Source: Candidatus Bathyarchaeota archaeon
GTDB lineage: Archaea; Thermoproteota; Bathyarchaeia; Bathyarchaeales; Bathycorpusculaceae
DNA: 64,000 nt
NCBI GenBank assembly: GCA_963780185.1
Contig: CAWABA010000006.1
Coordinates: forward strand, 576,001 to 640,000
Reading direction: 5' to 3'
Position numbers and translations under genes: made by a program. This document shows positions 25,811 through 37,114 of the stretch, piece after piece; positions within the stretch are counted from its first letter, which is position 1, and the number at the start of each line of letters is the position of its first letter. The notes under the pieces are model-generated. The model did no database searches and was not told the DNA's origin. It saw nothing but the letters and a program-made list of their open reading frames with translations.

Positions 25811-27097
25811 ATGAATAACTGGGGTAAAACCATTGCTTTACTGCTTGTTGCCTTGTTCTTTACTTCTTTAGTTACCCTATCATCCGCTGTGCCTGTTCAT
25901 GCTGCTGCTTTATCATGGAATGTTCAAACGGTAGATGGAAACGCTGTCTATGGCGGCGATTGCCCCCTTGCAGTTGACTCAAACAACGTAACCCACATAG
26001 CCTACAGCCAATTGACCAATGACGAGAAGTATTCTATACAGTACGCAAGCTGGAACGGCACAGGCTTCAACACACAAGCAATAGACACGGTTGAGGGCAG
26101 CGTGTACAGTCTTGTACTGGATGCAAACGATAATCCGCATGTATTATACAGTCACTCGTTTGAATCATATAATCAGGCCTTCATTAACGAATTAATAATT
26201 GCCACTTTGAACGGAGGAAGCTGGGTTCGCCAAGATACAGGCATTAACGCACGTTATGCAGTCCTTGCCTTAGACTCATCTGGCAACCCGCACATCGCGT
26301 ACACCGACGACAAAACCGTGAAATATGCAAGTTGGACAGGAACAACCTGGACTAACCAGATAGTAGACACATATGCCAGCATTCCTCGTAGCTTGTTTTT
26401 GTCGTTCGACTCCCACGATACACCGAAAATTCTCTACGCTTTCACGAGAAGTATCACCCTTGTTCAGGACATGGGTTGGAACTATGAAAATTTGAAGCTT
26501 GCAAGCTTCGAAAATTCTGGCTGGGACATCCAAAATTTCACCTTAAACGTGAATGATTTCGGCGACATGGTTTTAGATTCTAAGGGATTTCCCCACTTTA
26601 TTTGTCAAGAGTTCTTTCCGATAACGACTGGAGGCGGCAACAGCACCCTTTTTTACGCCAGTTGGAATGGGGTAGTTTGGAATACAGAGCCAGTTATTTC
26701 TAACACGGCTCTTAATTCAATCGGTTCCTTAACGTTAGACTCCAACGGCAACCCCCACATCTGCTATGTTATCCCCGCTCCAAATGGTGAGACAAAAATG
26801 CTTTATGCTAGTTGGACGGGCAAAGCCTGGAATACGCAAACCGTAGAAAATATTTCTGCGAGTGGTCCGTGCTACTTAGCATTGGATGTTAGCGGCAACC
26901 CACACATAAGCTCCATCGGAGATTCATTCTATTGGATTGCGACTTTGAAGTATGCCGCAGCCACAGAGGCAACACAGACGCCTCCGCCAAGCATTCCAGA
27001 CTACGCTATACTGTCATTAATATCGGCGGGTATCATTGTGGCAGTTGCAGCTGTTTTCTACGTTTGGAAAAAGAAGATAAAGATGCATGCTGAGTAG
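25811..27097 (+). CDS. Secreted repeat (beta-propeller-like) protein with TM anchor
   Basis: About 7 repeats of LxLDSxGNPHIxY..YASWxGxxWxxQxVD; IPDY-TM-KKK. Confidence 0.8.
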   Translation: MNNWGKTIALLLVALFFTSLVTLSSAVPVHAAALSWNVQTVDGNAVYGGDCPLAVDSNNVTHIAYSQLTNDEKYSIQYASWNGTGFNTQAIDTVEGSVYSLVLDANDNPHVLYSHSFESYNQAFINELIIATLNGGSWVRQDTGINARYAVLALDSSGNPHIAYTDDKTVKYASWTGTTWTNQIVDTYASIPRSLFLSFDSHDTPKILYAFTRSITLVQDMGWNYENLKLASFENSGWDIQNFTLNVNDFGDMVLDSKGFPHFICQEFFPITTGGGNSTLFYASWNGVVWNTEPVISNTALNSIGSLTLDSNGNPHICYVIPAPNGETKMLYASWTGKAWNTQTVENISASGPCYLALDVSGNPHISSIGDSFYWIATLKYAAATEATQTPPPSIPDYAILSLISAGIIVAVAAVFYVWKKKIKMHAE

Positions 27098-27100
27098 ATT

Positions 27101-27685
27101 CTACTGTCGCTGAATTTTTTGGATTTGTTTGTATCTAAAACACGTGACTAAGTGGTCGTTTACTAGGCCTGCGGCTTGCATGAATGCGTAGCATATGGTT
27201 GGGCCGACAAATTGGAAGCCTCTTTTCTTTAGGTCCTTGCTCATCGCTTCTGACTCAGGGGATTCTGCTGGCAGTTCGGATAGCTGGGTAAAAGTGTTTT
27301 GGATGGTTTTGCCGTGGACGAATTGCCAGATGTAGGTGTCAAAGCTGCCGAATTCCTTTTGAACTTTCAAGAAGCAGCATGCATTGTTGACGGTAGCCGC
27401 GATTTTGGATCGGTTTCGAACTATGGCAGCATCTTTCACTAAGCGTTCTATGTCGTTGTCGGTGTACTTTGCGATTTTCTCTGGATCAAAGCCGTCGAAA
27501 GCTTTTCTGAAAGCCTCCCTTTTCCGCAGAATAATCAGCCAAGAAAGCCCTGCTTGAAAAGCATCCAAAACCAAAAACTCAAGCAGCTTATCGTCATCGT
27601 GGACGGGAACGCCCCATTCCTCATCGTGATAAGCCACGTAAAGCGGATCATCAACGTTCCAACATCTATTCAACTCATGGGTCAT
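27101..27685 (-). CDS. tag: DNA-3-methyladenine glycosylase I
   Basis: YHDEEWG, FQAGLSW, IVRNRSKI, FVGPTICYAFMQAAGLVNDH. Confidence 0.95.
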   Translation of the reverse strand: MTHELNRCWNVDDPLYVAYHDEEWGVPVHDDDKLLEFLVLDAFQAGLSWLIILRKREAFRKAFDGFDPEKIAKYTDNDIERLVKDAAIVRNRSKIAATVNNACCFLKVQKEFGSFDTYIWQFVHGKTIQNTFTQLSELPAESPESEAMSKDLKKRGFQFVGPTICYAFMQAAGLVNDHLVTCFRYKQIQKIQRQ

Positions 27686-27798
27686 TGACTCGCACTCTCT
27701 CTAGCACTCAAATGTCGCTCAGATACTCAGGTCTTAGATAGATTTCCGCTTAAATGCTTTTCATGCTTGAACCGACGCAGGTGAGAACCTAACCGCTT

Positions 27799-28137
27799 TT
27801 ATTTTTTTGTGGAAGTTTGCGGTTCAAATGGCTTGAGTTTGCCATCTTTGTCTGTGATGTATAGTTGAAAGTCGTATTCTCTGCAGTAGTTTTTGAAGTC
27901 TCTCCACTGCGTTTTGTCGCCTTCAAAATCCTCTTCAGTCACAATTTGGCAAATTCGTTTTAAGCAGCCTTTATGTGCCATAACGTCTGGTACGATGCCG
28001 CCGACCTCGGAGGGTTTTTCCCAGCCTTCAGTATTCGCCTTCACCAGCCAATTGTCTTTTTTGAGATCTTCGGCAATAGTTCTTACACACGCATCATGGT
28101 TGTCTAATTTTCCAGATTTTTTCTCAACCACTTTCAA
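27799..28137 (-). CDS. Hypothetical protein, possible PD-(D/E)XK-like fold
   Basis: 112 aa ORF; VPDVMAHK..ICQIVT. Confidence 0.6.
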   Translation of the reverse strand: MKVVEKKSGKLDNHDACVRTIAEDLKKDNWLVKANTEGWEKPSEVGGIVPDVMAHKGCLKRICQIVTEEDFEGDKTQWRDFKNYCREYDFQLYITDKDGKLKPFEPQTSTKK

Positions 28138-28213
28138 AACCCCATAGATTGCTGTTTTAGAAATGTTAAATTAAGGATTTAAAGTTGAACCTCTAGCCTT
28201 GTTTTCCCTGAAG

Positions 28214-28444
28214 TTAAGCGGCGTTTGTCTGCGTCTCGGGTTTGTAGAGCGCTATCGCGGCGCCTAAAATGATTGATCCGACACCTAAAAGCATGAAAAG
28301 TACGACTGCGGCTCCACTCATCGAGTAAATGCTGAAGACGAATCCCCAGACAGCCGACCCGCTGAGAAGCACGCCGAGCAGAATAATTGCGATTCCGCCA
28401 AGCAAATTGTCTCTGCGTTCATCACTCAAATTCGGCAGTTTCAT
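28214..28444 (-). CDS. Small two-TM membrane protein
   Basis: Two hydrophobic helices. Confidence 0.6.
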   Translation of the reverse strand: MKLPNLSDERRDNLLGGIAIILLGVLLSGSAVWGFVFSIYSMSGAAVVLFMLLGVGSIILGAAIALYKPETQTNAA

Positions 28445-28514
28445 GAGGCTTACCTTTCAGCAAACGTTAATCGGATAGACTTGTTATTGGCGTTGGGGTA
28501 GAAATTCTTTTGCG

Positions 28515-29054
28515 TCAAGACGCTTTTTCCAAAGTTTCCATTATCTGCCTGTACCTGTTGTCGGTGAAGGTTAGGTTGTATTCTTGGAATTCCTGGAGCA
28601 TTTTTTGCTGTTCTTTTTCGGTGAAGTACCTCATTGATGAGATGAAGAAGTGTTTGTCTTCTTTTTCGATGTGCCGGGGGTACAGTTCAATAAGGGTGTT
28701 TAGCGCCTCAAGTAGGCTGCTAAAGGACCCAGCGTTGCCGCCGATGTAGCTGGCTTCTTGTTTCTCAAGGATAGTCACGGTTCTTCGTGCGGAGGCATGC
28801 TCCAAAATTAGTTCCCGCATCATCGCGGCGTCGGCTTCAGACAGCTTCCTTTTGTAGAGTGCGTTGAACAGTATGCCTTCTTCCTTTCCATGGTGGTAGC
28901 GGTCGGCGTAGGTTCTGAAAAAATCAACGGATGCAACAACGAAGTTTGGGTCAACCTTGCCAGAGGCAACGATTTTCTGGTGTTCTTTTTTGAGGACACC
29001 GACCGCGTGGAGGATTAAGCGGTGTTCGCTGATTAAAATTTCAACAGGCAACAT
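28515..29054 (-). CDS. Hemerythrin/HHE domain protein
   Basis: SEHRLI, HHGKEE..LF, EHASAR, HIEKED. Confidence 0.9.
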   Translation of the reverse strand: MLPVEILISEHRLILHAVGVLKKEHQKIVASGKVDPNFVVASVDFFRTYADRYHHGKEEGILFNALYKRKLSEADAAMMRELILEHASARRTVTILEKQEASYIGGNAGSFSSLLEALNTLIELYPRHIEKEDKHFFISSMRYFTEKEQQKMLQEFQEYNLTFTDNRYRQIMETLEKAS

Positions 29055-29120
29055 AACTCGAGACGTTCCTTTTTAATGCTATGTCGTGGGAATCCTAAAA
29101 GTTTGCGCAAAAGGCGGCGT

Positions 29121-29525
29121 TTAACCCGTGCTTTCTCCGTTTTGCTCGGTTTCACCAAGTTCTTTTTTGAGGTTTTTTTCTGAGAAGAAAAGCAGCGCGG
29201 CAACTATGCCGAGGATTACGGCGGCTGAAATGGATAGAGCGGGAACAAGGTTGACTGATGATGTTGCGGACATGGGGACTGCGGTGGGTGCCGCGACAGC
29301 GGAGGTTGGGGCTGGCGTGCCTGTGTTGTAGGGACCCGCTGTTGGGCTGGGGGTTGCGGGGGTGCCGTTAAAGTATTGGGCTGGGGTTGGCTCTGGCGAA
29401 GGCTGCTGTTGAGTTGAACCTTGCGGTCCAGCCGGCAAGAAGCTTACGCCTGCAGCAAGAGACAGAACTAGCGCAACGGCAAGAAACGGCGCAAACAACA
29501 TTTTCCTATTCAACAAACTTCGCAA
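29121..29525 (-). CDS. Membrane protein with Pro/Thr/Ala-rich linker
   Basis: Two hydrophobic segments flanking a low-complexity PT region. Confidence 0.65.
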   Translation of the reverse strand: MRSLLNRKMLFAPFLAVALVLSLAAGVSFLPAGPQGSTQQQPSPEPTPAQYFNGTPATPSPTAGPYNTGTPAPTSAVAAPTAVPMSATSSVNLVPALSISAAVILGIVAALLFFSEKNLKKELGETEQNGESTG

Positions 29526-29555
29526 CCTTTAAACTTTGATTCCTTAGCGCCATTA

Positions 29556-29571
29556 AACGGTACAAACCGTT
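29556..29571. promoter_or_regulatory. Inverted repeat AACGGT-N4-ACCGTT, candidate operator
   Basis: Perfect IR flanked by CATTAA and TTAATG in the divergent intergenic region. Confidence 0.4.
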
Positions 29572-29679
29572 ATTTAATGTTATATTTTAGGTTCCCTGTA
29601 CTAAGGTTTCGAACATTTGCTTTGAAGCCGTTCTGGGGTAGTTTTTAAATTGCTCCCTGCTCCTTTGTCTGGTTTGTGG

Positions 29680-30108
29680 ATGGCTTTGCCTGACGACGAC
29701 TCCAAAGAAGTGCTCAGGGGAACAACGCTGGAAGTTTACCGTTTCCTGCTGAAAAGCAACAAGCCAGTGGGAACACGCGAACTGCAAAGAGCACTCAACC
29801 TAAGCAGCCCCTCAGTAGCCACGTATCACCTGTCCAAGCTGGAGGATGCGGGCTTGCTCAAGAGGGAAGGAGGCGGCTTCACAGTCAGCAAGTACCTTCT
29901 GGAAAACAGCGTCAAAGTCAACCGTTTCTTGATTCCAAGGTTCCTCTTCTATGCCATCTTCGCCGTCGCCGCCCTCGCCGTCGAATTAACCCTGATGAAG
30001 CCCACCGTGCTTACTCGTGAATACGTGTTTTCAGCGCTTGCAATCGGCATACTTGCCGTCTTCTGCACCTACGAAACAGTCAAAACATGGCTCCGAGGCA
30101 ACCTGTAG
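29680..30108 (+). CDS. Winged-helix (ArsR-like) regulator with two C-terminal TM helices
   Basis: VGTRELQRALNLSSPSVATYHLSKLEDAGLL followed by two TM segments; ORF track start 29650. Confidence 0.82.
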   Translation: MALPDDDSKEVLRGTTLEVYRFLLKSNKPVGTRELQRALNLSSPSVATYHLSKLEDAGLLKREGGGFTVSKYLLENSVKVNRFLIPRFLFYAIFAVAALAVELTLMKPTVLTREYVFSALAIGILAVFCTYETVKTWLRGNL

Positions 30109-30366
30109 GACACAAAAGATGCTGTCCGAGATGCGTTTTAAGAGAGCGGTTAATCTTTAAGGCTTATTTCTAAAAACTGGAAAAAGATTTTCACAATCTC
30201 CGCGGTATTGCTTGAAATGGGGCTCAGATTGCACTTTTTCTGGCTGCAAAGTCTCGAATAACCGCAAAAACGGCTCTAAAATCAGGGAATTAAACTCTTA
30301 GTTAACTTTAAACGGTTGCTTGAACAATATGAGTGGCACCGATTTGGGACTGGTGGGAAAGGGTTT

Positions 30367-32586
30367 ATGGTTAATCAGCCTCCGCTTCGTGCACGCGGCG
30401 TCAAGGTGCTTAAAGCTGTTTCTTCACCGCTTAGGCTGCAAATCCTCAATTTGCTCTTTGACAGAAGCGCCCTGAGTTACACGGAACTCATGAACGCGTT
30501 GAAAATGAACCCGAGTCGAGACGCGGGCAGGTTCGCGTACCACCTAAAGTTCCTGCTGAAGGCTGATTTGGTTGAGGCGGATGTTGAAGCAAAAAAATAT
30601 TACCTGACTGATTTGGGCAAGATGGTTTTGGATGTGGCTGACCGTGTTGAAGCGAAGGCGGTCAAGCCCAGAGGCATGGTTGTTCGCACTTCGCATTTGA
30701 CGATGGAAGAGTTCGACGCCAACAAAATCGCGAATTCGCTCATAAAAGAGGCTAAGGTGCCTGCGGAGTTGGCGCAGAAAGCAGCGAAAGAAACCGAGAA
30801 ACGCCTGGTCAAGTCAAAAACCAAGTATCTTACCGCCGCGCTAATCCGCGAAGTCGTAAACGGGATTTTGATTGAGAAAGGCTATGAAGACTACCGTCAC
30901 AAACTCACACGCGTCGGCATGCCTGTGCACGAAGTAACTGCGCAGATTGAAGCTAAAGATCAAGCCTCAGATTCAGCAGCCATCATCACCAAGGCGGGTG
31001 AAGCGGTGCTGGAAGAGTACACGCTGCTTAACATTTTTCCAAGAGACATCGCTGACGCTCACCTCTCTGGCGCCATCCACATCGACGGCTTAGGCACCTG
31101 GATAACCAAACCAAATGAAGTCAACCATGACCTACGTTTTTTCCTGCAGAACGGACTCAAACTGGACAATCCCCTGCAAGCCAACATTGAGCCGCCCAGC
31201 ACCTTCGAATCGGCGCTTGCCATCGCGCTGGATGTTTTGCTGCATGCCAACAAAGAAGTCAGCCGAACCCAAACCTGCAGCTACTTCAACGTCTTCCTAG
31301 CCCCATACGCAAAAGGCGTCGATCCAGCGCGGCTTAAAGAAAACCTGCGCCTGTTCATCTTGAACCTGAACCAGCACTCGCAATCGGCGTTAGCGCTTGA
31401 ACTCTCCATTCCCAAAGCGACCGCGGAGAGGGAAGCCGTGGGTCCGAACGGAAAAATCTGCGGCAAATACAGCGACTACGCAGCAGAGAGCCAGCTTTTA
31501 GCTGCGTTGGCAATCGAGGTTTTTTCGGAGGAAAGCCAAAAGAAGCCGCTGCTTAACCCCAAGCTGATTATACGAGTTGGCAAAGAATCCTTCGCGGATG
31601 AAGCCTCAAAGATGCTTTTGCTTAAGGCGCATCAGTTGGCGGCTGAAAAAGGCGCACCTTACTTCGCCAATGCGTCGCGCAAAGAAACCGAAAATGCCGT
31701 CTACTCATCCACCGGCGTTAAACTTACTTCGGATTTGACAAGCGACTGGGAAACCGACACATTGCGCACGGGCTGCCTTGGCTGCGTAACAATTAACATG
31801 CCCAGAATCGCGTTGGAATGCGAGAAGGACAAAAACAAGTTTTTCGACCTTGCCCGCGAACGCTTCGAGCTTGCCGCCCGCGCCTTAGGAATAAAAGGCG
31901 CCGCTCTGAAGCAGTTCGGCAGAAACTCTTTGCCTTTCCTTCTGCGAAACGGCAACGGCGACGTTTACTTCAGGCTGGAAAACAGCAGCCGCATGATTAA
32001 TCTAGCTGGGTTTCGGGAAGCCGTGGAGGCTTTCACGGAGAAAGGCTTCAACTCGGAGGAAGCTCGAGCCTTCGCTGCGGAAACGATCCAGTCGATTCTG
32101 GCTTTTAAGCAGAAAATCGGCAGAAAATACGGCAGACGCCTCTACCCCGCCTTGCTTGGCAACAGTGAAGCGGCTGAGCGGCTTGCGCAGCTGGATATTG
32201 AACGGTTCGGCGTGGCTAAAGTCAAGTTTTCGGGAACAAGAGAAAAACCCTACTATTCGAACACGCGCAGATTCCAGACGAAAACTATGGGGGAAACGTT
32301 GGCGCTTGTGACGGAGCAGTTGGAGACCGCGCAGAAATTGAAGGGGCTCAACGCAGGCGGAACCCTGGAAATCATCGAGTTGGAAGGCGGCGCGTATAAG
32401 GCTGAGGCGTTGATGGATTTGAGTCGTCGCCTAATAGAAAACCAATCCCTCGAGTTCTTCACGTACAATCGCATCGTGAGCTACTGTGACACCTGCAAGA
32501 AAAGCTGGTTCGGAACGCTACACAAATGTCCCTGCTGCGGCTCCATGAGTGCCTTGGCAACTTTTGACCGTTTCGCGTCAATATAG
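30367..32586 (+). CDS. wHTH + ATP-cone + class III (NrdD-like) RNR fusion lacking catalytic residues
   Basis: SSPLRLQIL..RFAYHLKFL wHTH; VRTS..EEFDANKI..LIREVVN ATP cone; DIADAHLSGAIHI, FNVFLAPY, VTINMPRIA, CDTC..CPCC; no PNC, MGC or RxxGY; ORF track start 30316. Confidence 0.85.
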   Translation: MVNQPPLRARGVKVLKAVSSPLRLQILNLLFDRSALSYTELMNALKMNPSRDAGRFAYHLKFLLKADLVEADVEAKKYYLTDLGKMVLDVADRVEAKAVKPRGMVVRTSHLTMEEFDANKIANSLIKEAKVPAELAQKAAKETEKRLVKSKTKYLTAALIREVVNGILIEKGYEDYRHKLTRVGMPVHEVTAQIEAKDQASDSAAIITKAGEAVLEEYTLLNIFPRDIADAHLSGAIHIDGLGTWITKPNEVNHDLRFFLQNGLKLDNPLQANIEPPSTFESALAIALDVLLHANKEVSRTQTCSYFNVFLAPYAKGVDPARLKENLRLFILNLNQHSQSALALELSIPKATAEREAVGPNGKICGKYSDYAAESQLLAALAIEVFSEESQKKPLLNPKLIIRVGKESFADEASKMLLLKAHQLAAEKGAPYFANASRKETENAVYSSTGVKLTSDLTSDWETDTLRTGCLGCVTINMPRIALECEKDKNKFFDLARERFELAARALGIKGAALKQFGRNSLPFLLRNGNGDVYFRLENSSRMINLAGFREAVEAFTEKGFNSEEARAFAAETIQSILAFKQKIGRKYGRRLYPALLGNSEAAERLAQLDIERFGVAKVKFSGTREKPYYSNTRRFQTKTMGETLALVTEQLETAQKLKGLNAGGTLEIIELEGGAYKAEALMDLSRRLIENQSLEFFTYNRIVSYCDTCKKSWFGTLHKCPCCGSMSALATFDRFASI

Positions 32587-32593
32587 CGGCGGC

Positions 32594-33863
<1,270 letters not shown>

Positions 33864-33997
33864 ATACCTCGGCGGCATCAGTCAAACGATTTCTCTCACA
33901 GCTCACCCCTCGGTTCGCTAGATTAGCCAAATAGACTGAAGAACCAACAGCAAAAATCTTATACTTCTTCGCTCTAAGGATGAGATGGCGCTTACAC

Positions 33998-35182
33998 ATG
34001 AACACTTTTCATGTAGCGACAGCAGCAGTTTGCATAATTTTTCTCTCCAGCATAGCCTGCATAGGCTCCGAGAACATCAACGGTTGCGTTTTGGGTGTTC
34101 CTTCATCAGCTCTTTCTGTGTCTATTTCGCCCGCGGCAGCTGCTTTTAACCTTGGGCAATCTCAACCGCTAACCGCTACTCCTAGCGGCGGCTCAGGTTC
34201 CTACACAGGTTATCAATGGTACGTAGGTGGGTCTGCTCAGACGGGCCAAACCGCGTCAACCTTCAATTTCTCGCCCGCTTCCGCGAATATGTACTCAATC
34301 AGTGTGACAGTTACTGACAACACAGGCGCAACTTCGGCACAGTCAAATGCTACAATGATTATGGTGGTGGTCGGTCAAACAGTTTCTGTCTCTCCTGGAT
34401 CTGCGTCCTTGGATATGGGTCAGTCTCAACTTTTCACTGCTGTTTTCAACAGTGGTAATAGTGGTTCTCTTCCTTGGATGTATCAATGGTACGTGGATGG
34501 AACTGCCCAGTCGGGTCAAACTGCATCAACCTTTAATTACGCTCCTGCCTCCGCGGGCACTTACTCAATCACTGTGATGATTTTCAACAGTACAGGTTTT
34601 CCTGTAATGCAGTCTGCACCCGCAACGGTCACGGCTTCGGGAACTACGGCTGCAACTCCAACTCTAAACCCGACTCAAAACCCAACGGCAAATCCAACTC
34701 AGCCACCGACAACTGTGCCTGCGACCACAGGCGATGGCTCGACGGTTGACCTTGCAATCAGTGGAAACATAGCTAGCTCCCAGATGTCCAACGTCGCAAT
34801 CATCGCAAACCAATCTGCGTCAACGACAAGGGTGTCTTTCACAGTGACTGGGGCAAGCGGCACTGAAGGTTTAGGCAACATAACAATTCCGAAAAGCTTG
34901 GTGCCGTACGGAACGACGCCGACAATCTACATCGACGACCAGCCAGCCCAAAACCAAGGATTCACTCAAGACAGCGACAACTATTACGTTTGGTACACGA
35001 CGCATTTCAGCACGCACCAGGTTTCCATCGTTTTCACGGGCGGCTCTTCGGGGTCTGAAGGGACAGCAAGTTTGATCGGGGCAGTTTACGGCGCAATAGG
35101 CGCCATCGTCGTGGTGGCAGCAATCATAGCAGCACTTATGCTGATGATAAACCGCAGAAAAGGCACAATCTCAGAAAATTGA
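33998..35182 (+). CDS. Secreted protein with two PKD/Ig-like repeats, PT linker and TM anchor
   Basis: VSxSP..YQWYV..AQxGQTASTFN..YSIxV twice; NITIPKSL..YTTHFSTH domain. Confidence 0.8.
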   Translation: MNTFHVATAAVCIIFLSSIACIGSENINGCVLGVPSSALSVSISPAAAAFNLGQSQPLTATPSGGSGSYTGYQWYVGGSAQTGQTASTFNFSPASANMYSISVTVTDNTGATSAQSNATMIMVVVGQTVSVSPGSASLDMGQSQLFTAVFNSGNSGSLPWMYQWYVDGTAQSGQTASTFNYAPASAGTYSITVMIFNSTGFPVMQSAPATVTASGTTAATPTLNPTQNPTANPTQPPTTVPATTGDGSTVDLAISGNIASSQMSNVAIIANQSASTTRVSFTVTGASGTEGLGNITIPKSLVPYGTTPTIYIDDQPAQNQGFTQDSDNYYVWYTTHFSTHQVSIVFTGGSSGSEGTASLIGAVYGAIGAIVVVAAIIAALMLMINRRKGTISEN

Positions 35183-35189
35183 GCCAACA

Positions 35190-36230
35190 CTAAAGCTTTA
35201 TTGTTTGCCTTAGGGTTTCGGCGGCGGTTTCAGGCGTCACCGTGTTGATGTAGGTTCCCGTTGTGATTTCGAAGCCTGCCCAAATCGAAAGTTTCGGCTG
35301 AACCTCCAGATGCCAATGGTAAAAGTCCTCTGCATTCTTGTCTAATGCCAAGTGGAAACCGTAGTTGTAAGGCGGGTCATTCACCAAATCCTTCAGCGCC
35401 CCAAGACTTGCCTTAAGAGTCTTAGCTAACGCAGCCACCTCGCCGTCGCTGAGGCTGAGTAAATTTGCCGCGTGTTTTTTGGGCACAATCCAGAACTCCA
35501 TCGGGTTAATGCTTGCGTAAGGCGCGAAAACCGCGAAGTCTGCACCGTCCGAGATGAGCCTTGGACCCTTCGTTTCCCGCTCGATTATGTCGCAGAAAAC
35601 GCATTTCCCGTGTTCAGCGTAGAATTTTTTGCTGGCATCCAGCTCCTCCTGAATCAGGGGCGGAACCATCGGCGTGGCAATCACTTGGCTGTGCGCGTGA
35701 GACATGGATGCGCCTGCCAGCTGCCCATAATTGCGGAAAATAGACACATACTTCACATAAGGCTTTGCGCTCAAATCCCTGAGCCTGTCGATGTAGGCGT
35801 GGATAAGCAACTCCAGCTGGGGCAACTCTGCATCTGCGGGTCCTTCATCATGGTTTGGAGACTCAACGATAACTTCATGGTGCCCTATCGCGTTGCCTAA
35901 GGATTCGCTCGAAAAGATTTGCTCCGTGTCCTGCGGCTGCTTGGGCGGGCTAAAAGCTGGGTACAGATTTGGGATGCAGCGGACAAGCCAATTCTTTGGG
36001 CGCTCACCAACCAAGGGGTCTTGAGCTATGTGCACTTCGTCGCCGTCTTTGAGATACAGCATCACCGCTGGAGGCGTCATGGACTCGTTACCCACACACA
36101 TCGGGCAAACCGCCACCTTCGCATGCTCAGTTTTCTGCTTCGCAAAATCAGTCGGACGCCGACCCCGCTCAGTCGCAATAACAACCCAACGGTCCAGCAA
36201 ATAATCTTTCCTAAGCTCATTATACGGCAT
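35190..36230 (-). CDS. galT: Galactose-1-phosphate uridylyltransferase family (GalT/HIT)
   Basis: ELRKD..WVVIATERGRRP, CPMC, NLYPA, HEVIVE, GASMSHAHSQ, YHWHLE. Confidence 0.85.
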   Translation of the reverse strand: MPYNELRKDYLLDRWVVIATERGRRPTDFAKQKTEHAKVAVCPMCVGNESMTPPAVMLYLKDGDEVHIAQDPLVGERPKNWLVRCIPNLYPAFSPPKQPQDTEQIFSSESLGNAIGHHEVIVESPNHDEGPADAELPQLELLIHAYIDRLRDLSAKPYVKYVSIFRNYGQLAGASMSHAHSQVIATPMVPPLIQEELDASKKFYAEHGKCVFCDIIERETKGPRLISDGADFAVFAPYASINPMEFWIVPKKHAANLLSLSDGEVAALAKTLKASLGALKDLVNDPPYNYGFHLALDKNAEDFYHWHLEVQPKLSIWAGFEITTGTYINTVTPETAAETLRQTIKL

Positions 36231-36325
36231 GATAGGCACCCTCAAAAACAAGGGCGCTGAAACATTTTAGCATTTCCCAAAGACAGACGCATGAGCCATA
36301 GGTTTTCCGCAGCTGCTTAAAGAAA

Positions 36326-36517
36326 TTAAACTTGATTTTCAGTTTTTCTTTTTGTTATATCTAAAAACATGAGTTTTTGTTCTTCTCGCTCTTGTTTGGG
36401 CGCCAAAATAAAACCATAATTCACATAAAATTTAACCGCCGAGTCAACGGCATCCACAACCAAAAAACCAACAGTCTTTGGCTTTAGCGGTGGCTGAGAA
36501 GGAATGAAACAGTTCAA
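36326..36517 (-). pseudogene. Internally deleted GNAT acetyltransferase
   Basis: FLVVDAVDSAVKFYVNYGF..MFLDI is the GNAT C-terminal motif; acetyl-CoA motif A absent. Confidence 0.55.
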
Positions 36518-36655
36518 TTAAAGAGGACAGTTCTTAAAAGTTTCCGTTGCCCTAAGGTACCGCGCCTCATCTGCTTCAGTTGGCTTGCGCTTGATTTCCT
36601 TCTCAACCGCTGCCCACTGCTCAGAATCAAGGGTTGGTATAGGTTTGGGCAACAT
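36518..36655 (-). CDS. Small 45-aa antitoxin-like protein (not in ORF track)
   Basis: MLPKPIPTLDSEQWAAVEKEIKRKPTEADEARYLRATETFKNCPL*, stop abuts the GNAT start. Confidence 0.5.
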   Translation of the reverse strand: MLPKPIPTLDSEQWAAVEKEIKRKPTEADEARYLRATETFKNCPL

Positions 36656-37114
36656 TTTTTATTCGCCTTCTTTTCTGGAAACTATCGATTTACCACTACT
36701 AATTACTAGGACGGTTGGTTGATAAATTTATGTGAACTTGCTGAAGTTTCCATGCTTTGACTTAACCAACCGATAATAAATGCATCAATTTCTACAGTTT
36801 TTTCGATGCAAAAATGACTTTCAAATGCCTACCATTATAAAATTCTCTTTTCTGACAAGACTTCAGCATCTAAACCGTGAACTCTAAGGTAAAGCATATC
36901 CTGAAGACTCAACTTTGTGATTTTTTCATCTTTAACTTGTGAGGCGAAAAATAACTTTAAATGGAGAAAGTACATCCGCATTTTCATTTTAAGCTGTTCT
37001 GAATGTGGTATAATCGTGGTTGAAAGTATAAACAAAAAGGAGAGATTTAGGAACCATAACAGAGAAAGAGGAAATGTGATTGCTATTTTACTTCGCATCT
37101 AAGTTTGTTTCGAT

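What the first reader, a model, noticed from the sequence alone, without database searches (positions are those of the whole stretch)
30367..32586. Catalytically dead class III ribonucleotide reductase fused to a winged-helix domain: candidate nucleotide-sensing transcription factor
Seen: one uninterrupted ORF with an ArsR-like wHTH (~100 aa), an ATP cone, a full NrdD-like barrel and the C-terminal Zn site (CDTC..CPCC). Established: NrdD catalysis needs the C-terminal glycyl-radical motif RxxGY and the finger-loop thiyl Cys (YMGCR), usually with a second Cys (RPNC-type). By my eye alignment these positions read DRFASI* (no Gly), YSSTGVKL (~31702) and KPNE (Glu at 31117). The substrate-site GGQ/RGxQ motifs are also altered (SRTQ, NQHSQ), and there is no nrdG in the window. 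The Cys losses are in-frame substitutions, so indel errors cannot explain them. Inference: an RNR scaffold that kept its allosteric (d)NTP-binding parts, lost chemistry and gained DNA binding, i.e. a possible archaeal functional analogue of NrdR. It sits tail-to-tail with pyrB.
Basis: partly seen in the sequence, partly recalled or inferred. Interest (0 to 1): 0.88.

Follow-up and report, generated by a model that had tools for sequence, protein, structure and literature searches.

The report
Dead anaerobic reductase fused to DNA-binding domain
This Bathyarchaeal gene is a well-conserved copy of the anaerobic ribonucleotide reductase that has lost its radical chemistry and gained a DNA-binding head, so it is probably an undescribed nucleotide-sensing gene regulator that databases label as the enzyme.

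Summary
Window 30367-32586 (+) encodes 739 aa: an ArsR-type winged helix, an ATP-cone, an NrdD barrel and a Cys4 zinc site. The finger-loop Cys, the second active-site Cys, the HxHD motif and the RxxGY glycine are all absent.

It is not a decaying copy.
- All 74 wHTH-bearing representatives lack the full catalytic set.
- They form one clade.
- dN/dS is 0.03-0.16.

The genome has a separate nrdR-nrdD-nrdG operon and no class I/II RNR.

The family spans Thermoproteota, including aerobic ammonia oxidisers. In 20 of 55 sampled genomes it sits next to an RNR gene, class III or class II. In 15 of 55 it sits next to pyrB/pyrI.

In this window's clade the neighbouring nrdD is gone. That leaves the tail-to-tail pyrB as a likely synteny relic. 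A bacterial-type NrdR module is present instead.

DNA binding, nucleotide sensing and targets remain inferred, and I found no operator. I found no paper on the family. The scan has reported this family before on other genomes. What is new here is the coexistence with NrdR and the origin of the pyrB adjacency.

The parts
30298..30313 (+). Probable archaeal BRE/TATA promoter of the gene (TTAGTTAACTTTAAAC), about 54 nt upstream of the ATG
   Evidence: A TTTAAA box lies 47-72 nt upstream of the start in 63 of 78 orthologous upstream regions, with conserved flanks. A second conserved block lies about 20 nt downstream. The promoter role is inferred. The 16-mer is not enriched in the genome: 5 hits against 11 for the reversed control.
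30367..32586 (+). Coding sequence of the wHTH + ATP-cone + dead-NrdD protein (739 aa, P0001)
   Evidence: At least 120 clusters at 74-100% identity, most of them 738-739 aa.
30394..30660 (+). ArsR/SmtB-type winged helix-turn-helix (residues about 10-98), topology a1-a2-a3-a4-b-b-a5
   Evidence: Pfam DUF7347 and HTH_5. Model helices 6-17, 21-33, 38-44, 49-65, strands 69-72 and 77-80, helix 82-98. Foldseek match to HlyU, TM 0.70 to target. The recognition-helix residues G54, F56, Y58, H59 and L60 are at least 90% conserved across 64 relatives.
30676..30927 (+). ATP-cone (104-177) and the conserved linker that follows (YRHKLTRVGMPV, to residue 187)
   Evidence: Pfam PF03477 at 30.3 bits. Invariant V106, R107, F116, I121, L125, E128, R161, L168, R182, G184 and P186. 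Lowest dN/dS in most of the pairs printed. It is the same 'VRTS...LIRE' type of cone as in intact archaeal NrdDs.
30985..32559 (+). NrdD-like alpha/beta barrel without catalytic residues
   Evidence: Pfam NRDD 207-731 at 216.6 bits. TIGR02487 scores 230.1, below its 326.35 cut-off. Foldseek to class III RNRs. dN/dS 0.04-0.18.
31117..31119 (+). Glu251 at the position of the second active-site Cys of NrdD
   Evidence: None of 74 wHTH-bearing representatives has Cys in this column.
31702..31725 (+). Finger-loop equivalent YSSTGVKL, with no Cys where NrdD carries the thiyl-radical Cys
   Evidence: Two of 74 wHTH-bearing rows have a Cys in either finger-loop column, and none has all three catalytic features.
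31795..31797 (+). Asn477 of the retained INMPRI motif, an active-site Asn of NrdD that is kept
   Evidence: Invariant in A1 and in 97 of 97 aligned rows. Its role in NrdD is recalled, not tested.
32485..32538 (+). C-terminal Cys4 zinc site (C707, C710, C721, C724)
   Evidence: Invariant in 64 relatives. It aligns with the CxxC...CxxC of the intact NrdD and of the T. maritima enzyme.
32539..32586 (+). Truncated remnant of the glycyl-radical domain (…ATFDRFASI, stop). Ser stands where NrdD has the radical Gly.
   Evidence: The residue in this column varies across the family: gap 26, G 13, A 7, N 7, T 6, S 5 and others.
32594..33577 (-). pyrB (aspartate carbamoyltransferase), convergent neighbour. 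A context feature, not shown to be a target.
   Evidence: TIGR00670 at 381.7 bits. It is the convergent neighbour in 77 of 80 Bathyarchaeal loci. The TIGR00670 match starts at residue 27 of the listed ORF, so the true start is probably later.

Best explanation
The gene encodes a non-catalytic paralogue of the class III ribonucleotide reductase. It most likely works as a nucleotide-responsive DNA-binding regulator of nucleotide-precursor genes.

Shown:
- The fold is NrdD.
- The radical machinery is gone: the thiyl Cys, the second Cys, the HxHD motif and the glycyl-radical loop.
- An ArsR-type winged helix and an ATP-cone sit in front of the barrel.
- All parts are under purifying selection.
- The family is old and monophyletic.
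- Its genes lie beside RNR genes of two different classes and beside pyrB/pyrI in many lineages.

Inferred:
- The barrel serves as a dimerising scaffold, as NrdDs are dimers, and presents two winged helices to DNA.
- The ATP-cone is directly tethered to the winged helix and is of the same type as in active archaeal NrdDs. It binds ATP/dATP and repositions itself as described for active class III enzymes. This would change how the DNA-binding heads are held and so switch promoter binding.

In this organism's family the adjacent nrdD has been lost, and an nrdR-nrdD-nrdG module is present elsewhere. The targets here are therefore unknown. Candidates are its own promoter, the nrd operon, pyrB or other nucleotide-metabolism genes.
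For: Domains and fold.

Loss of catalytic residues in this protein.

Loss across the family: none of 74 wHTH-bearing representatives has the Cys/Cys/Gly set, against 9 of 23 rows without a detectable wHTH. Asn477 is kept in 97 of 97 rows.

Single origin: the 74 family rows form one side of a branch with SH-like support 100, nested among archaeal NrdDs.

Selection: dN/dS is 0.03-0.16 over the whole gene in 15 printed pairs of the 99 at 80-97% identity. The wHTH and cone are mostly lower than the barrel.

Constant core. Six family members, from a member lying beside nrdD to a Caldarchaeum protein, were scanned.
- DUF7347 scores 33-41 bits in all six.
- ATP-cone scores 27-36 bits in all six.
- NRDD falls from 288 to 229, 91, 56, 36 and 19 bits.
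- The window protein scores 216.6.

The recognition helix is nearly invariant.

The cone is of the same type as in intact archaeal NrdDs that keep Cys, HxHD and RITGY.

Context in 55 genomes spread over the phylum.
- An RNR gene is adjacent in 20.
- In 12 Nitrosopumilaceae-type genomes it is a class II RNR directly downstream on the same strand, and in a 13th it is divergent.
- pyrB/pyrI is adjacent in 15.

It is not needed as an enzyme: an intact nrdD (661 bits, with MCCRLR and RVVGY) and nrdG lie elsewhere in the genome.

Cone repositioning in class III RNRs: title and abstract of PMC12662201 (listing) and passages of PMC11226230.
Against: No DNA binding, nucleotide binding or target has been shown.

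I found no dyad operator in the conserved upstream region. The conserved promoter 16-mer is not enriched in the genome.

The canonical Lys-Arg of the cone hairpin reads Thr-Ser here in an ungapped reading. Intact archaeal NrdDs share this feature.

In this clade no RNR gene lies within the fetched flanks of any of 80 loci. The genome has its own NrdR. The strongest context argument therefore comes from other lineages.

Seventeen of the 55 sampled loci have no nucleotide-metabolism neighbour, and 7 have ornithine carbamoyltransferase instead.

The sampled genomes are kin and were chosen by me, so the counts are not independent.
Confidence: 0.55

Rival explanations
1. It is a DNA-associated protein that reads nucleotide pools but is not a gene-specific transcription factor. 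For example, it could be a chromatin-like or replication-linked factor that binds DNA with little sequence preference.
For: I found no operator motif. The family is nearly universal in several lineages as one copy per genome, more like a housekeeping factor than an operon-specific regulator. A weak NCBIfam hit to an Sso10a-type chromatin protein family is far below cut-off: 15.3 bits against 60.
Against: The gene is tightly placed directly upstream of RNR genes of two classes. The nearly invariant recognition helix fits a specific conserved site better.
Confidence: 0.15
2. It is a protein-binding regulatory or scaffold subunit. It would pair with an active RNR or another enzyme, and its winged helix would serve protein contacts rather than DNA.
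For: NrdDs are dimers and the barrel is kept under selection. The gene is often adjacent to nrdD.
Against: In ammonia oxidisers the only RNR nearby is class II, and no second NrdD-like match at E <= 1e-20 was found in 26 of 26 genomes of that family. In some lineages the barrel decays to below Pfam detection while the wHTH and cone stay constant. In this clade no RNR gene is near.
Confidence: 0.12
3. It is still an enzyme. It would either use a non-glycine backbone radical, as in the recently described aminoacyl radical enzymes (Ser stands at the Gly position here), or carry out some non-radical chemistry in the old active site.
For: Ser aligns with the radical Gly. Glycyl-radical homologues with Ala, Ser or Thr at that position form radicals (PMC11528403, abstract and passages). 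Asn477 and a GG motif of the active site are retained.
Against: Those enzymes keep the catalytic Cys, and Cys variants of glycyl radical enzymes are inactive. This family has none. The residue at the Gly column is not conserved, and the tail is deleted in 26 of 74 rows. HxHD is lost. No dedicated activase is present: only one NrdG2 scores above cut-off in the genome, and it lies inside the nrd operon. The family thrives in aerobic ammonia oxidisers.
Confidence: 0.05
4. It is a decaying pseudogene or an assembly artefact.
For: None beyond the missing catalytic residues.
Against: The frame is intact. More than 100 clusters have the same length. dN/dS is 0.03-0.16. The model is confident, with pLDDT 89.6. 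The same losses occur in 74 distant relatives.
Confidence: 0.01

Closest known systems
Class III (anaerobic, glycyl-radical) ribonucleotide reductase NrdD (PF13597, TIGR02487; solved examples 9d3x, 8p2s, 4coj, 1hk8)
   Same: The ten-stranded barrel fold, the N-terminal ATP-cone of the archaeal 'VRTS' type, the INMPRI Asn, the RLxxLD and GG motifs, and the C-terminal Cys4 zinc site.
   Different: It lacks the thiyl Cys, the second Cys, HxHD and RxxGY, and has no tail beyond the zinc site. It scores below the TIGR02487 cut-off. It carries an extra ArsR-type winged helix.
NrdR, the RNR-specific repressor of bacteria (TIGR00244: Zn ribbon plus ATP-cone)
   Same: A DNA-binding module joined to an ATP-cone, and genes placed at RNR loci in many lineages. 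This is a resemblance in how it may work, not homology outside the cone.
   Different: The DNA-binding module is a winged helix, not an N-terminal zinc ribbon. A whole dead RNR body follows the cone. There is no TIGR00244 match. This genome has a true NrdR of its own.
ArsR/SmtB-family winged-helix regulators such as HlyU (4ooi, 3jth)
   Same: The fold and the recognition-helix pattern.
   Different: The score is below the NCBIfam ArsR/SmtB cut-off: 32.9 against 55. The sensor is a roughly 640-residue enzyme-derived body rather than a metal site in the wHTH dimer. Metal sites were not examined.
Enzyme-derived sensor domains in transcription factors in general, for example phosphoribosyltransferase-like PurR of Bacillus or aminotransferase-like MocR regulators (recalled, not searched)
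   Same: The principle is the same: a former enzyme keeps its ligand pocket and is fused to a DNA-binding domain.
   Different: No known case, in the searches I ran, uses a ribonucleotide reductase as the sensor body.

Membership tests
Class III RNR catalytic subunit NrdD | NrdD barrel homology and fold | tested here: met
   PF13597 at 216.6 bits. Foldseek E 1e-25 to 1e-19 against solved NrdDs.
Class III RNR catalytic subunit NrdD | Score above the curated equivalog cut-off (TIGR02487) | tested here: not met
   230.1 bits against a cut-off of 326.35. The genome's real NrdD scores 661 bits on PF13597.
Class III RNR catalytic subunit NrdD | Thiyl-radical Cys at the tip of the finger loop | tested here: not met
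   YSSTGVKL aligns with SMCCRLR. No Cys lies between residues 365 and 470.
Class III RNR catalytic subunit NrdD | C-terminal glycyl-radical motif RxxGY | tested here: not met
   RFASI followed by the stop aligns with RVVGYL. The stop is confirmed and the pyrB stop lies 7 nt away.
Class III RNR catalytic subunit NrdD | Second active-site Cys and the HxHD substrate-triphosphate motif | tested here: not met
   Glu251 stands for the Cys, and HIDG stands for HIHD. The role of HxHD is taken from PMC11226230.
Class III RNR catalytic subunit NrdD | C-terminal Cys4 zinc site | tested here: met
   C707, C710, C721 and C724 are invariant.
Class III RNR catalytic subunit NrdD | Dedicated activase NrdG | tested here: not met
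   None in the window. The genome's single NrdG2 above cut-off lies in the nrdR-nrdD-nrdG operon on contig 10.
ArsR/SmtB winged-helix transcription factors | wHTH fold with a1-a2-a3-a4-b-b-a5 topology | tested here: met
   HTH_5 at 29.7 bits, cut-off 22. Model topology. HlyU match at TM 0.70.
ArsR/SmtB winged-helix transcription factors | Curated subfamily score (NF033788) | tested here: not met
   32.9 bits against a cut-off of 55.
ArsR/SmtB winged-helix transcription factors | Sequence-specific DNA binding as a dimer | not testable with these tools
   No operator found. This needs EMSA or DAP-seq.
NrdR | N-terminal zinc ribbon plus ATP-cone, TIGR00244 match | tested here: not met
   No TIGR00244 hit among 12 NCBIfam matches. 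The N-terminus is a wHTH. The genome's real NrdR scores 154.6 bits.
NrdR | ATP/dATP binding by the cone controls DNA binding | not testable with these tools
   The cone is present and highly conserved. Ligand binding is untested.
Aminoacyl radical enzymes (Ala/Ser/Thr in place of the radical Gly) | Conserved non-Gly radical residue together with the catalytic Cys and an activase | tested here: not met
   The column is variable or deleted, and there is no catalytic Cys. There is no separate activase. Features taken from PMC11528403.

The most novel reading that the evidence does not exclude
This family is the missing general regulator of deoxynucleotide and pyrimidine supply in Archaea. It would be a dead class III RNR whose ATP-cone, and perhaps its old effector or substrate pockets, read the (d)NTP pool. 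Its winged helix would switch RNR genes of whatever class the host uses, plus pyr genes. In this Bathyarchaeal family it has been partly displaced at the nrd operon by a horizontally acquired bacterial NrdR module, yet it is kept for other targets. That would make this genome a natural experiment in which the two systems coexist.
Probability: 0.4. Interest if true: 0.85.

Novelty: new variant of a known kind. Interest (0 to 1): 0.75.

Why it matters
NrdR, the RNR repressor of bacteria, is rare in archaea (PMC9110341, passages). How most archaea control RNR genes is not known to me. A conserved, single-copy family next to RNR genes of two classes offers a concrete and testable candidate. It is present from anaerobic Bathyarchaeia to aerobic ammonia oxidisers.

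It would also be a striking pseudoenzyme: a radical enzyme reused as a sensor.

There is a practical side. Public annotation calls these proteins 'anaerobic ribonucleoside-triphosphate reductase', even in obligate aerobes. That mislabel can mislead metabolic reconstructions from metagenomes.

Tried and rejected
Operator search. I aligned 78 upstream regions of orthologues. They show a conserved BRE/TATA-like block and a second block about 20 nt downstream, but no clear dyad. The 16-mer of the window, with up to 2 mismatches, gave 5 genome hits against 11 for the reversed control. I dropped it as a regulon marker. The upstream regions of pyrB share no obvious block with the gene's own promoter.

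Ammonia oxidisers. GATC-containing hexamers are over-represented upstream of both the family gene and nrdJ, and an inverted repeat lies upstream of nrdJ. The p-values are borderline after correction for about 2,000 hexamers, and the genomes are kin. I treat this as a lead only.

Expression. No RNA holder was listed for window 29600-33700, and only small-share DNA runs appeared. I did not lay reads.

Complex prediction on two copies of residues 1-200 gave no verdict: score 0.16 against a mark of 0.42.

The ATP-cone alone (95 residues) found no solved relative by phmmer.

Rfam: no match in 27000-37000 at E <= 0.1. The sigma-70 promoter and terminator scan was not above shuffles and does not apply to archaea.

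Literature. Searches found no paper on a wHTH-NrdD fusion, an NrdD pseudoenzyme or DUF7347. Term searches inside PMC9669993, PMC4390871 and PMC9531940 found no mention either. Subscription journals are not covered.

Corrected error. I first labelled the divergent neighbours in L105, L106, L149, L150 and L152-L154 as pyrB. NCBIfam shows that the two I scanned, L105 and L106, are ornithine carbamoyltransferase. I relabelled the other five by their 70-94% tblastn identity to those two and recounted.

Specificity site. I could not map it without residue-level structural alignments.
Full report
WHAT IS THERE

Window 30367-32586 (+) is one open frame of 739 codons ending in TAG. Pfam finds four domains:
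- an ArsR-type winged helix: DUF7347 at 14-89 and HTH_5 at 20-70;
- an ATP-cone at 104-177, 30.3 bits against a cut-off of 25.8;
- the NrdD family domain at 207-731, 216.6 bits.

NCBIfam's NrdD equivalog model scores 230.1 bits, well under its 326.35 cut-off.

An AlphaFold2 model built on 64 relatives is confident (pLDDT 89.6, pTM 0.80). Its best structural matches are all solved class III RNRs. The N-terminal domain matches the ArsR-family protein HlyU.

THE CATALYTIC RESIDUES

The genome holds a second, intact NrdD (P0121) on another contig, and I used it as the ruler. In BLASTP and MAFFT alignments:
- its GAYCVGWD Cys aligns with Glu251;
- its finger-loop SMCCRLR aligns with YSSTGVKL;
- its HIHD aligns with HIDG;
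- its RVVGYL aligns with RFASI followed by the stop codon.

The protein has no Cys between residues 365 and 470, so a shifted thiyl Cys is excluded. The pyrB stop lies 7 nt beyond the TAG, so no hidden C-terminus exists. The four zinc cysteines and the Asn of the INMPRI motif are kept.

NOT A DECAYING COPY

The word-index search listed 120 clusters at 74-100% identity, most of them 738-739 aa. Of these, 117 carry DUF7347, and all carry ATP-cone and NRDD.

The exhaustive search of 50%-identity representatives found 321 proteins at E <= 1e-30. I aligned P0001, P0121 and the 95 of the 150 listed representatives that are 600-810 aa long. The 55 shorter fragments and longer proteins were dropped. 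Results:
- 74 rows have a BLASTP-detectable winged helix.
- Among those 74, none has the first Cys, 2 have a Cys in either finger-loop column, 2 have Gly followed by Tyr or Phe, and none has all three.
- All 74 keep the Asn.
- Of the 23 rows without a detectable winged helix, 9 have the complete catalytic set.

On a FastTree tree of 89 rows, the 74 family members form one side of a branch (SH-like support 100). They are nested among archaeal NrdDs.

Nei-Gojobori dN/dS between orthologues at 80-97% identity is 0.03-0.16 for the whole gene. The winged helix and cone are mostly lower than the barrel, which lies at 0.04-0.18 (15 of 99 pairs printed).

WHICH PART CARRIES THE CONSERVED FUNCTION

In the 64-sequence alignment the invariant columns cluster in four places: the recognition helix of the winged helix, the cone, the linker after the cone, and the zinc site.

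I scanned six family members, from a member next to nrdD down to a 529-aa Caldarchaeum protein.
- DUF7347 stays at 33-41 bits.
- ATP-cone stays at 27-36 bits.
- NRDD falls from 288 to 229, 91, 56, 36 and 19 bits.
- The window protein scores 216.6.

The constant core is therefore the winged helix plus the cone.

The cone is not degenerate relative to its enzyme relatives. Intact archaeal NrdDs that keep the Cys, HxHD and RITGY motifs carry the same 'VRTS...LIRE' type of cone. The Tyr and Arg residues of the last cone helix are kept: Y176 and R177 are at least 90% conserved, and R182 is invariant. In the Prevotella enzyme, Tyr83, Arg87 and Arg91 of that helix contact dATP (PMC11226230, passages). 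This correspondence is my own eye alignment.

THE GENOME'S REAL RNR

Contig 10 carries nrdR (TIGR00244, 154.6 bits), nrdD (661 bits on PF13597) and nrdG (TIGR02495, 183.3 bits) in a row. No class I or II RNR domain was found in the assembly, which is 93% complete.

NrdR is described as rare in archaea (PMC9110341, passages). In a sample of 121 genomes of the class, NrdR is present in G000 and all 9 other genomes of the window's own family, and in 1 of 111 others.

DISTRIBUTION AND NEIGHBOURS

In 201 genomes sampled from the phylum, 143 have a match at E <= 1e-20. That count also includes plain NrdDs. By my count, all but 22 of the listed places begin at query residue 1-20, so they include the winged helix.

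Source names place members in Bathyarchaeia, Nitrosotenuis (an ammonia oxidiser), Caldarchaeum and Methanosuratincola. They are annotated either as anaerobic RNR or as ArsR-family regulator. The protein atlas also points to clusters with this architecture in Promethearchaeota and Nanobdellota. Those are leads only.

I fetched 55 loci from 55 genomes spread over the phylum's families. The choice was mine, and ammonia oxidisers are over-represented with 13 loci. Neighbours were as follows:
- An RNR gene lies next to the family gene in 20 loci.
- Five of those 20 have nrdD or an NrdD-like gene: L108, L109, L110, L113 and L121.
- Fifteen have class II nrdJ: 13 ammonia oxidisers plus L112 and L122.
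- In 12 ammonia-oxidiser loci nrdJ follows directly on the same strand after 194-435 nt. In L146 it is divergent.
- pyrB or pyrI is adjacent in 15 loci, and 4 of these also have the RNR gene.
- Ornithine carbamoyltransferase lies divergently in 7 loci. NCBIfam identified it in L105 and L106, and the other five were assigned by tblastn identity to those two.
- None of these genes is adjacent in 17 loci.

Linkage to RNR genes of two unrelated cofactor classes argues for a role tied to the RNR gene or its product pool. It argues against NrdD chemistry or NrdD pairing.

THE pyrB NEIGHBOUR OF THIS WINDOW

In 80 Bathyarchaeal loci whose protein is 56-90% identical, pyrB is the convergent neighbour in 77. 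The other three contigs end just after the gene. None of the 80 has nrdD, nrdG, nrdJ or nrdR within the fetched flanks.

Sister families show this order: family gene, nrdD, sometimes nrdG, then convergent pyrB with pyrI beside it (L121, L108, L110). Removing nrdD from that cluster gives exactly the arrangement in the window.

The tail-to-tail pyrB is therefore most simply a relic of an ancestral nucleotide-metabolism cluster. The loss of the adjacent nrdD coincides with the presence of the nrdR-nrdD-nrdG module in this family. The coincidence is observed. The order of events is inferred.

MECHANISM

Shown:
- a dead NrdD body;
- a conserved winged helix and cone;
- selection on all parts;
- linkage to nucleotide genes in many lineages.

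Inferred:
- The barrel dimerises as NrdDs do.
- Nucleotide binding to the cone repositions it, as reported for active class III enzymes (PMC12662201, title and abstract only; PMC11226230, passages).
- This changes how the two winged helices meet DNA.

I could not find an operator. I could not obtain expression data. The dimer prediction gave no verdict. Targets in this organism are open.

RIVALS

A non-specific DNA-associated nucleotide sensor and a protein-binding regulatory subunit remain possible.

A non-glycine radical enzyme deserved a look, because Ser stands at the Gly position here and such enzymes were described in 2024 (PMC11528403). Four points argue against it.
- Those enzymes keep the catalytic Cys, which this family lacks.
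- The column is variable or deleted in the family.
- There is no spare activase.
- The family lives in aerobes.

COMPARISON AND NOVELTY

By homology this is an NrdD paralogue, but it fails four defining features of the enzyme. By presumed working it resembles NrdR (a DNA-binding module plus an ATP-cone), yet it shares only the cone with it.

Nine literature searches found no description of the family. Term searches in three RNR phylogeny and evolution papers found none either. Supplements were closed and subscription journals are not covered.

Earlier agents of this scan reported the same family on other genomes. My own tests agree with them. This window adds three things: the coexistence with NrdR, the relic explanation of the pyrB adjacency, and the gradient of barrel decay around a constant winged-helix and cone core.

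Noticed in passing
L001 698-3964 (G000 contig 10, 65530-68796): A complete nrdR-nrdD-nrdG operon in an archaeon. NrdR is called rare in archaea in PMC9110341. In my sample of the class it is confined to the window's own family (G000 and all 9 others) plus 1 of 111 other genomes. That fits a horizontally acquired bacterial-type module. I did not examine the upstream region (L001 382-697) for NrdR boxes.
   Followed up: partly
window 29650-30108 (+): The upstream neighbour is a 152-aa protein with a winged-helix-like N-terminal half and hydrophobic C-terminal helices. It has no NCBIfam match. A tblastn match to it is present in only 4 of 80 related loci.
   Followed up: no
L024-L031, L033, L039, L080 and others, about 80-140 nt upstream of pyrB; window 33578-33979: Many relatives carry a conserved non-coding block with a hairpin-forming core upstream of pyrB. 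The window instead has two repeat units there, the repeat family noted by another first-stage finding. There is no Rfam match.
   Followed up: partly
L109 4176-6083 (-), identical to P0231: The NrdD-like gene next to the family gene in genome G004 is itself degenerate. It has no finger-loop Cys and no RxxGY, and TIGR02487 scores 259.9, below the 326.35 cut-off. More generally, 14 of 23 aligned rows without a detectable winged helix also lack at least one catalytic feature. Dead NrdDs without the DNA-binding head therefore exist too.
   Followed up: partly
L103, L104, L138-L145, L147, L148 (ammonia-oxidiser loci), intergenic regions upstream of the family gene and of nrdJ: A conserved inverted repeat lies about 70-90 nt upstream of nrdJ. 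GATC-containing hexamers are over-represented upstream of both genes. This is a candidate operator for the family in that lineage. The statistics are borderline and the genomes are related.
   Followed up: partly
window 32594-33577 (-): The listed pyrB ORF is probably too long at its 5' end. The TIGR00670 match starts at residue 27, and orthologues align from about residue 22. A conserved TATA-like block lies inside the listed ORF's first codons.
   Followed up: no
P0178, P0182, P0186, P0193, P0232, P0243, P0251 and other hits of 1000-1700 aa: Intact NrdD homologues with RITGY tails are matched in 2-5 separate stretches. They look intein-bearing. I did not check this.
   Followed up: no
L053 (record titled Methanocella sp. 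MAG): A 65%-identical copy with the same pyrB neighbour sits on a contig binned as Methanocella, among otherwise Bathyarchaeal hits. This is possibly a mis-binned contig.
   Followed up: no
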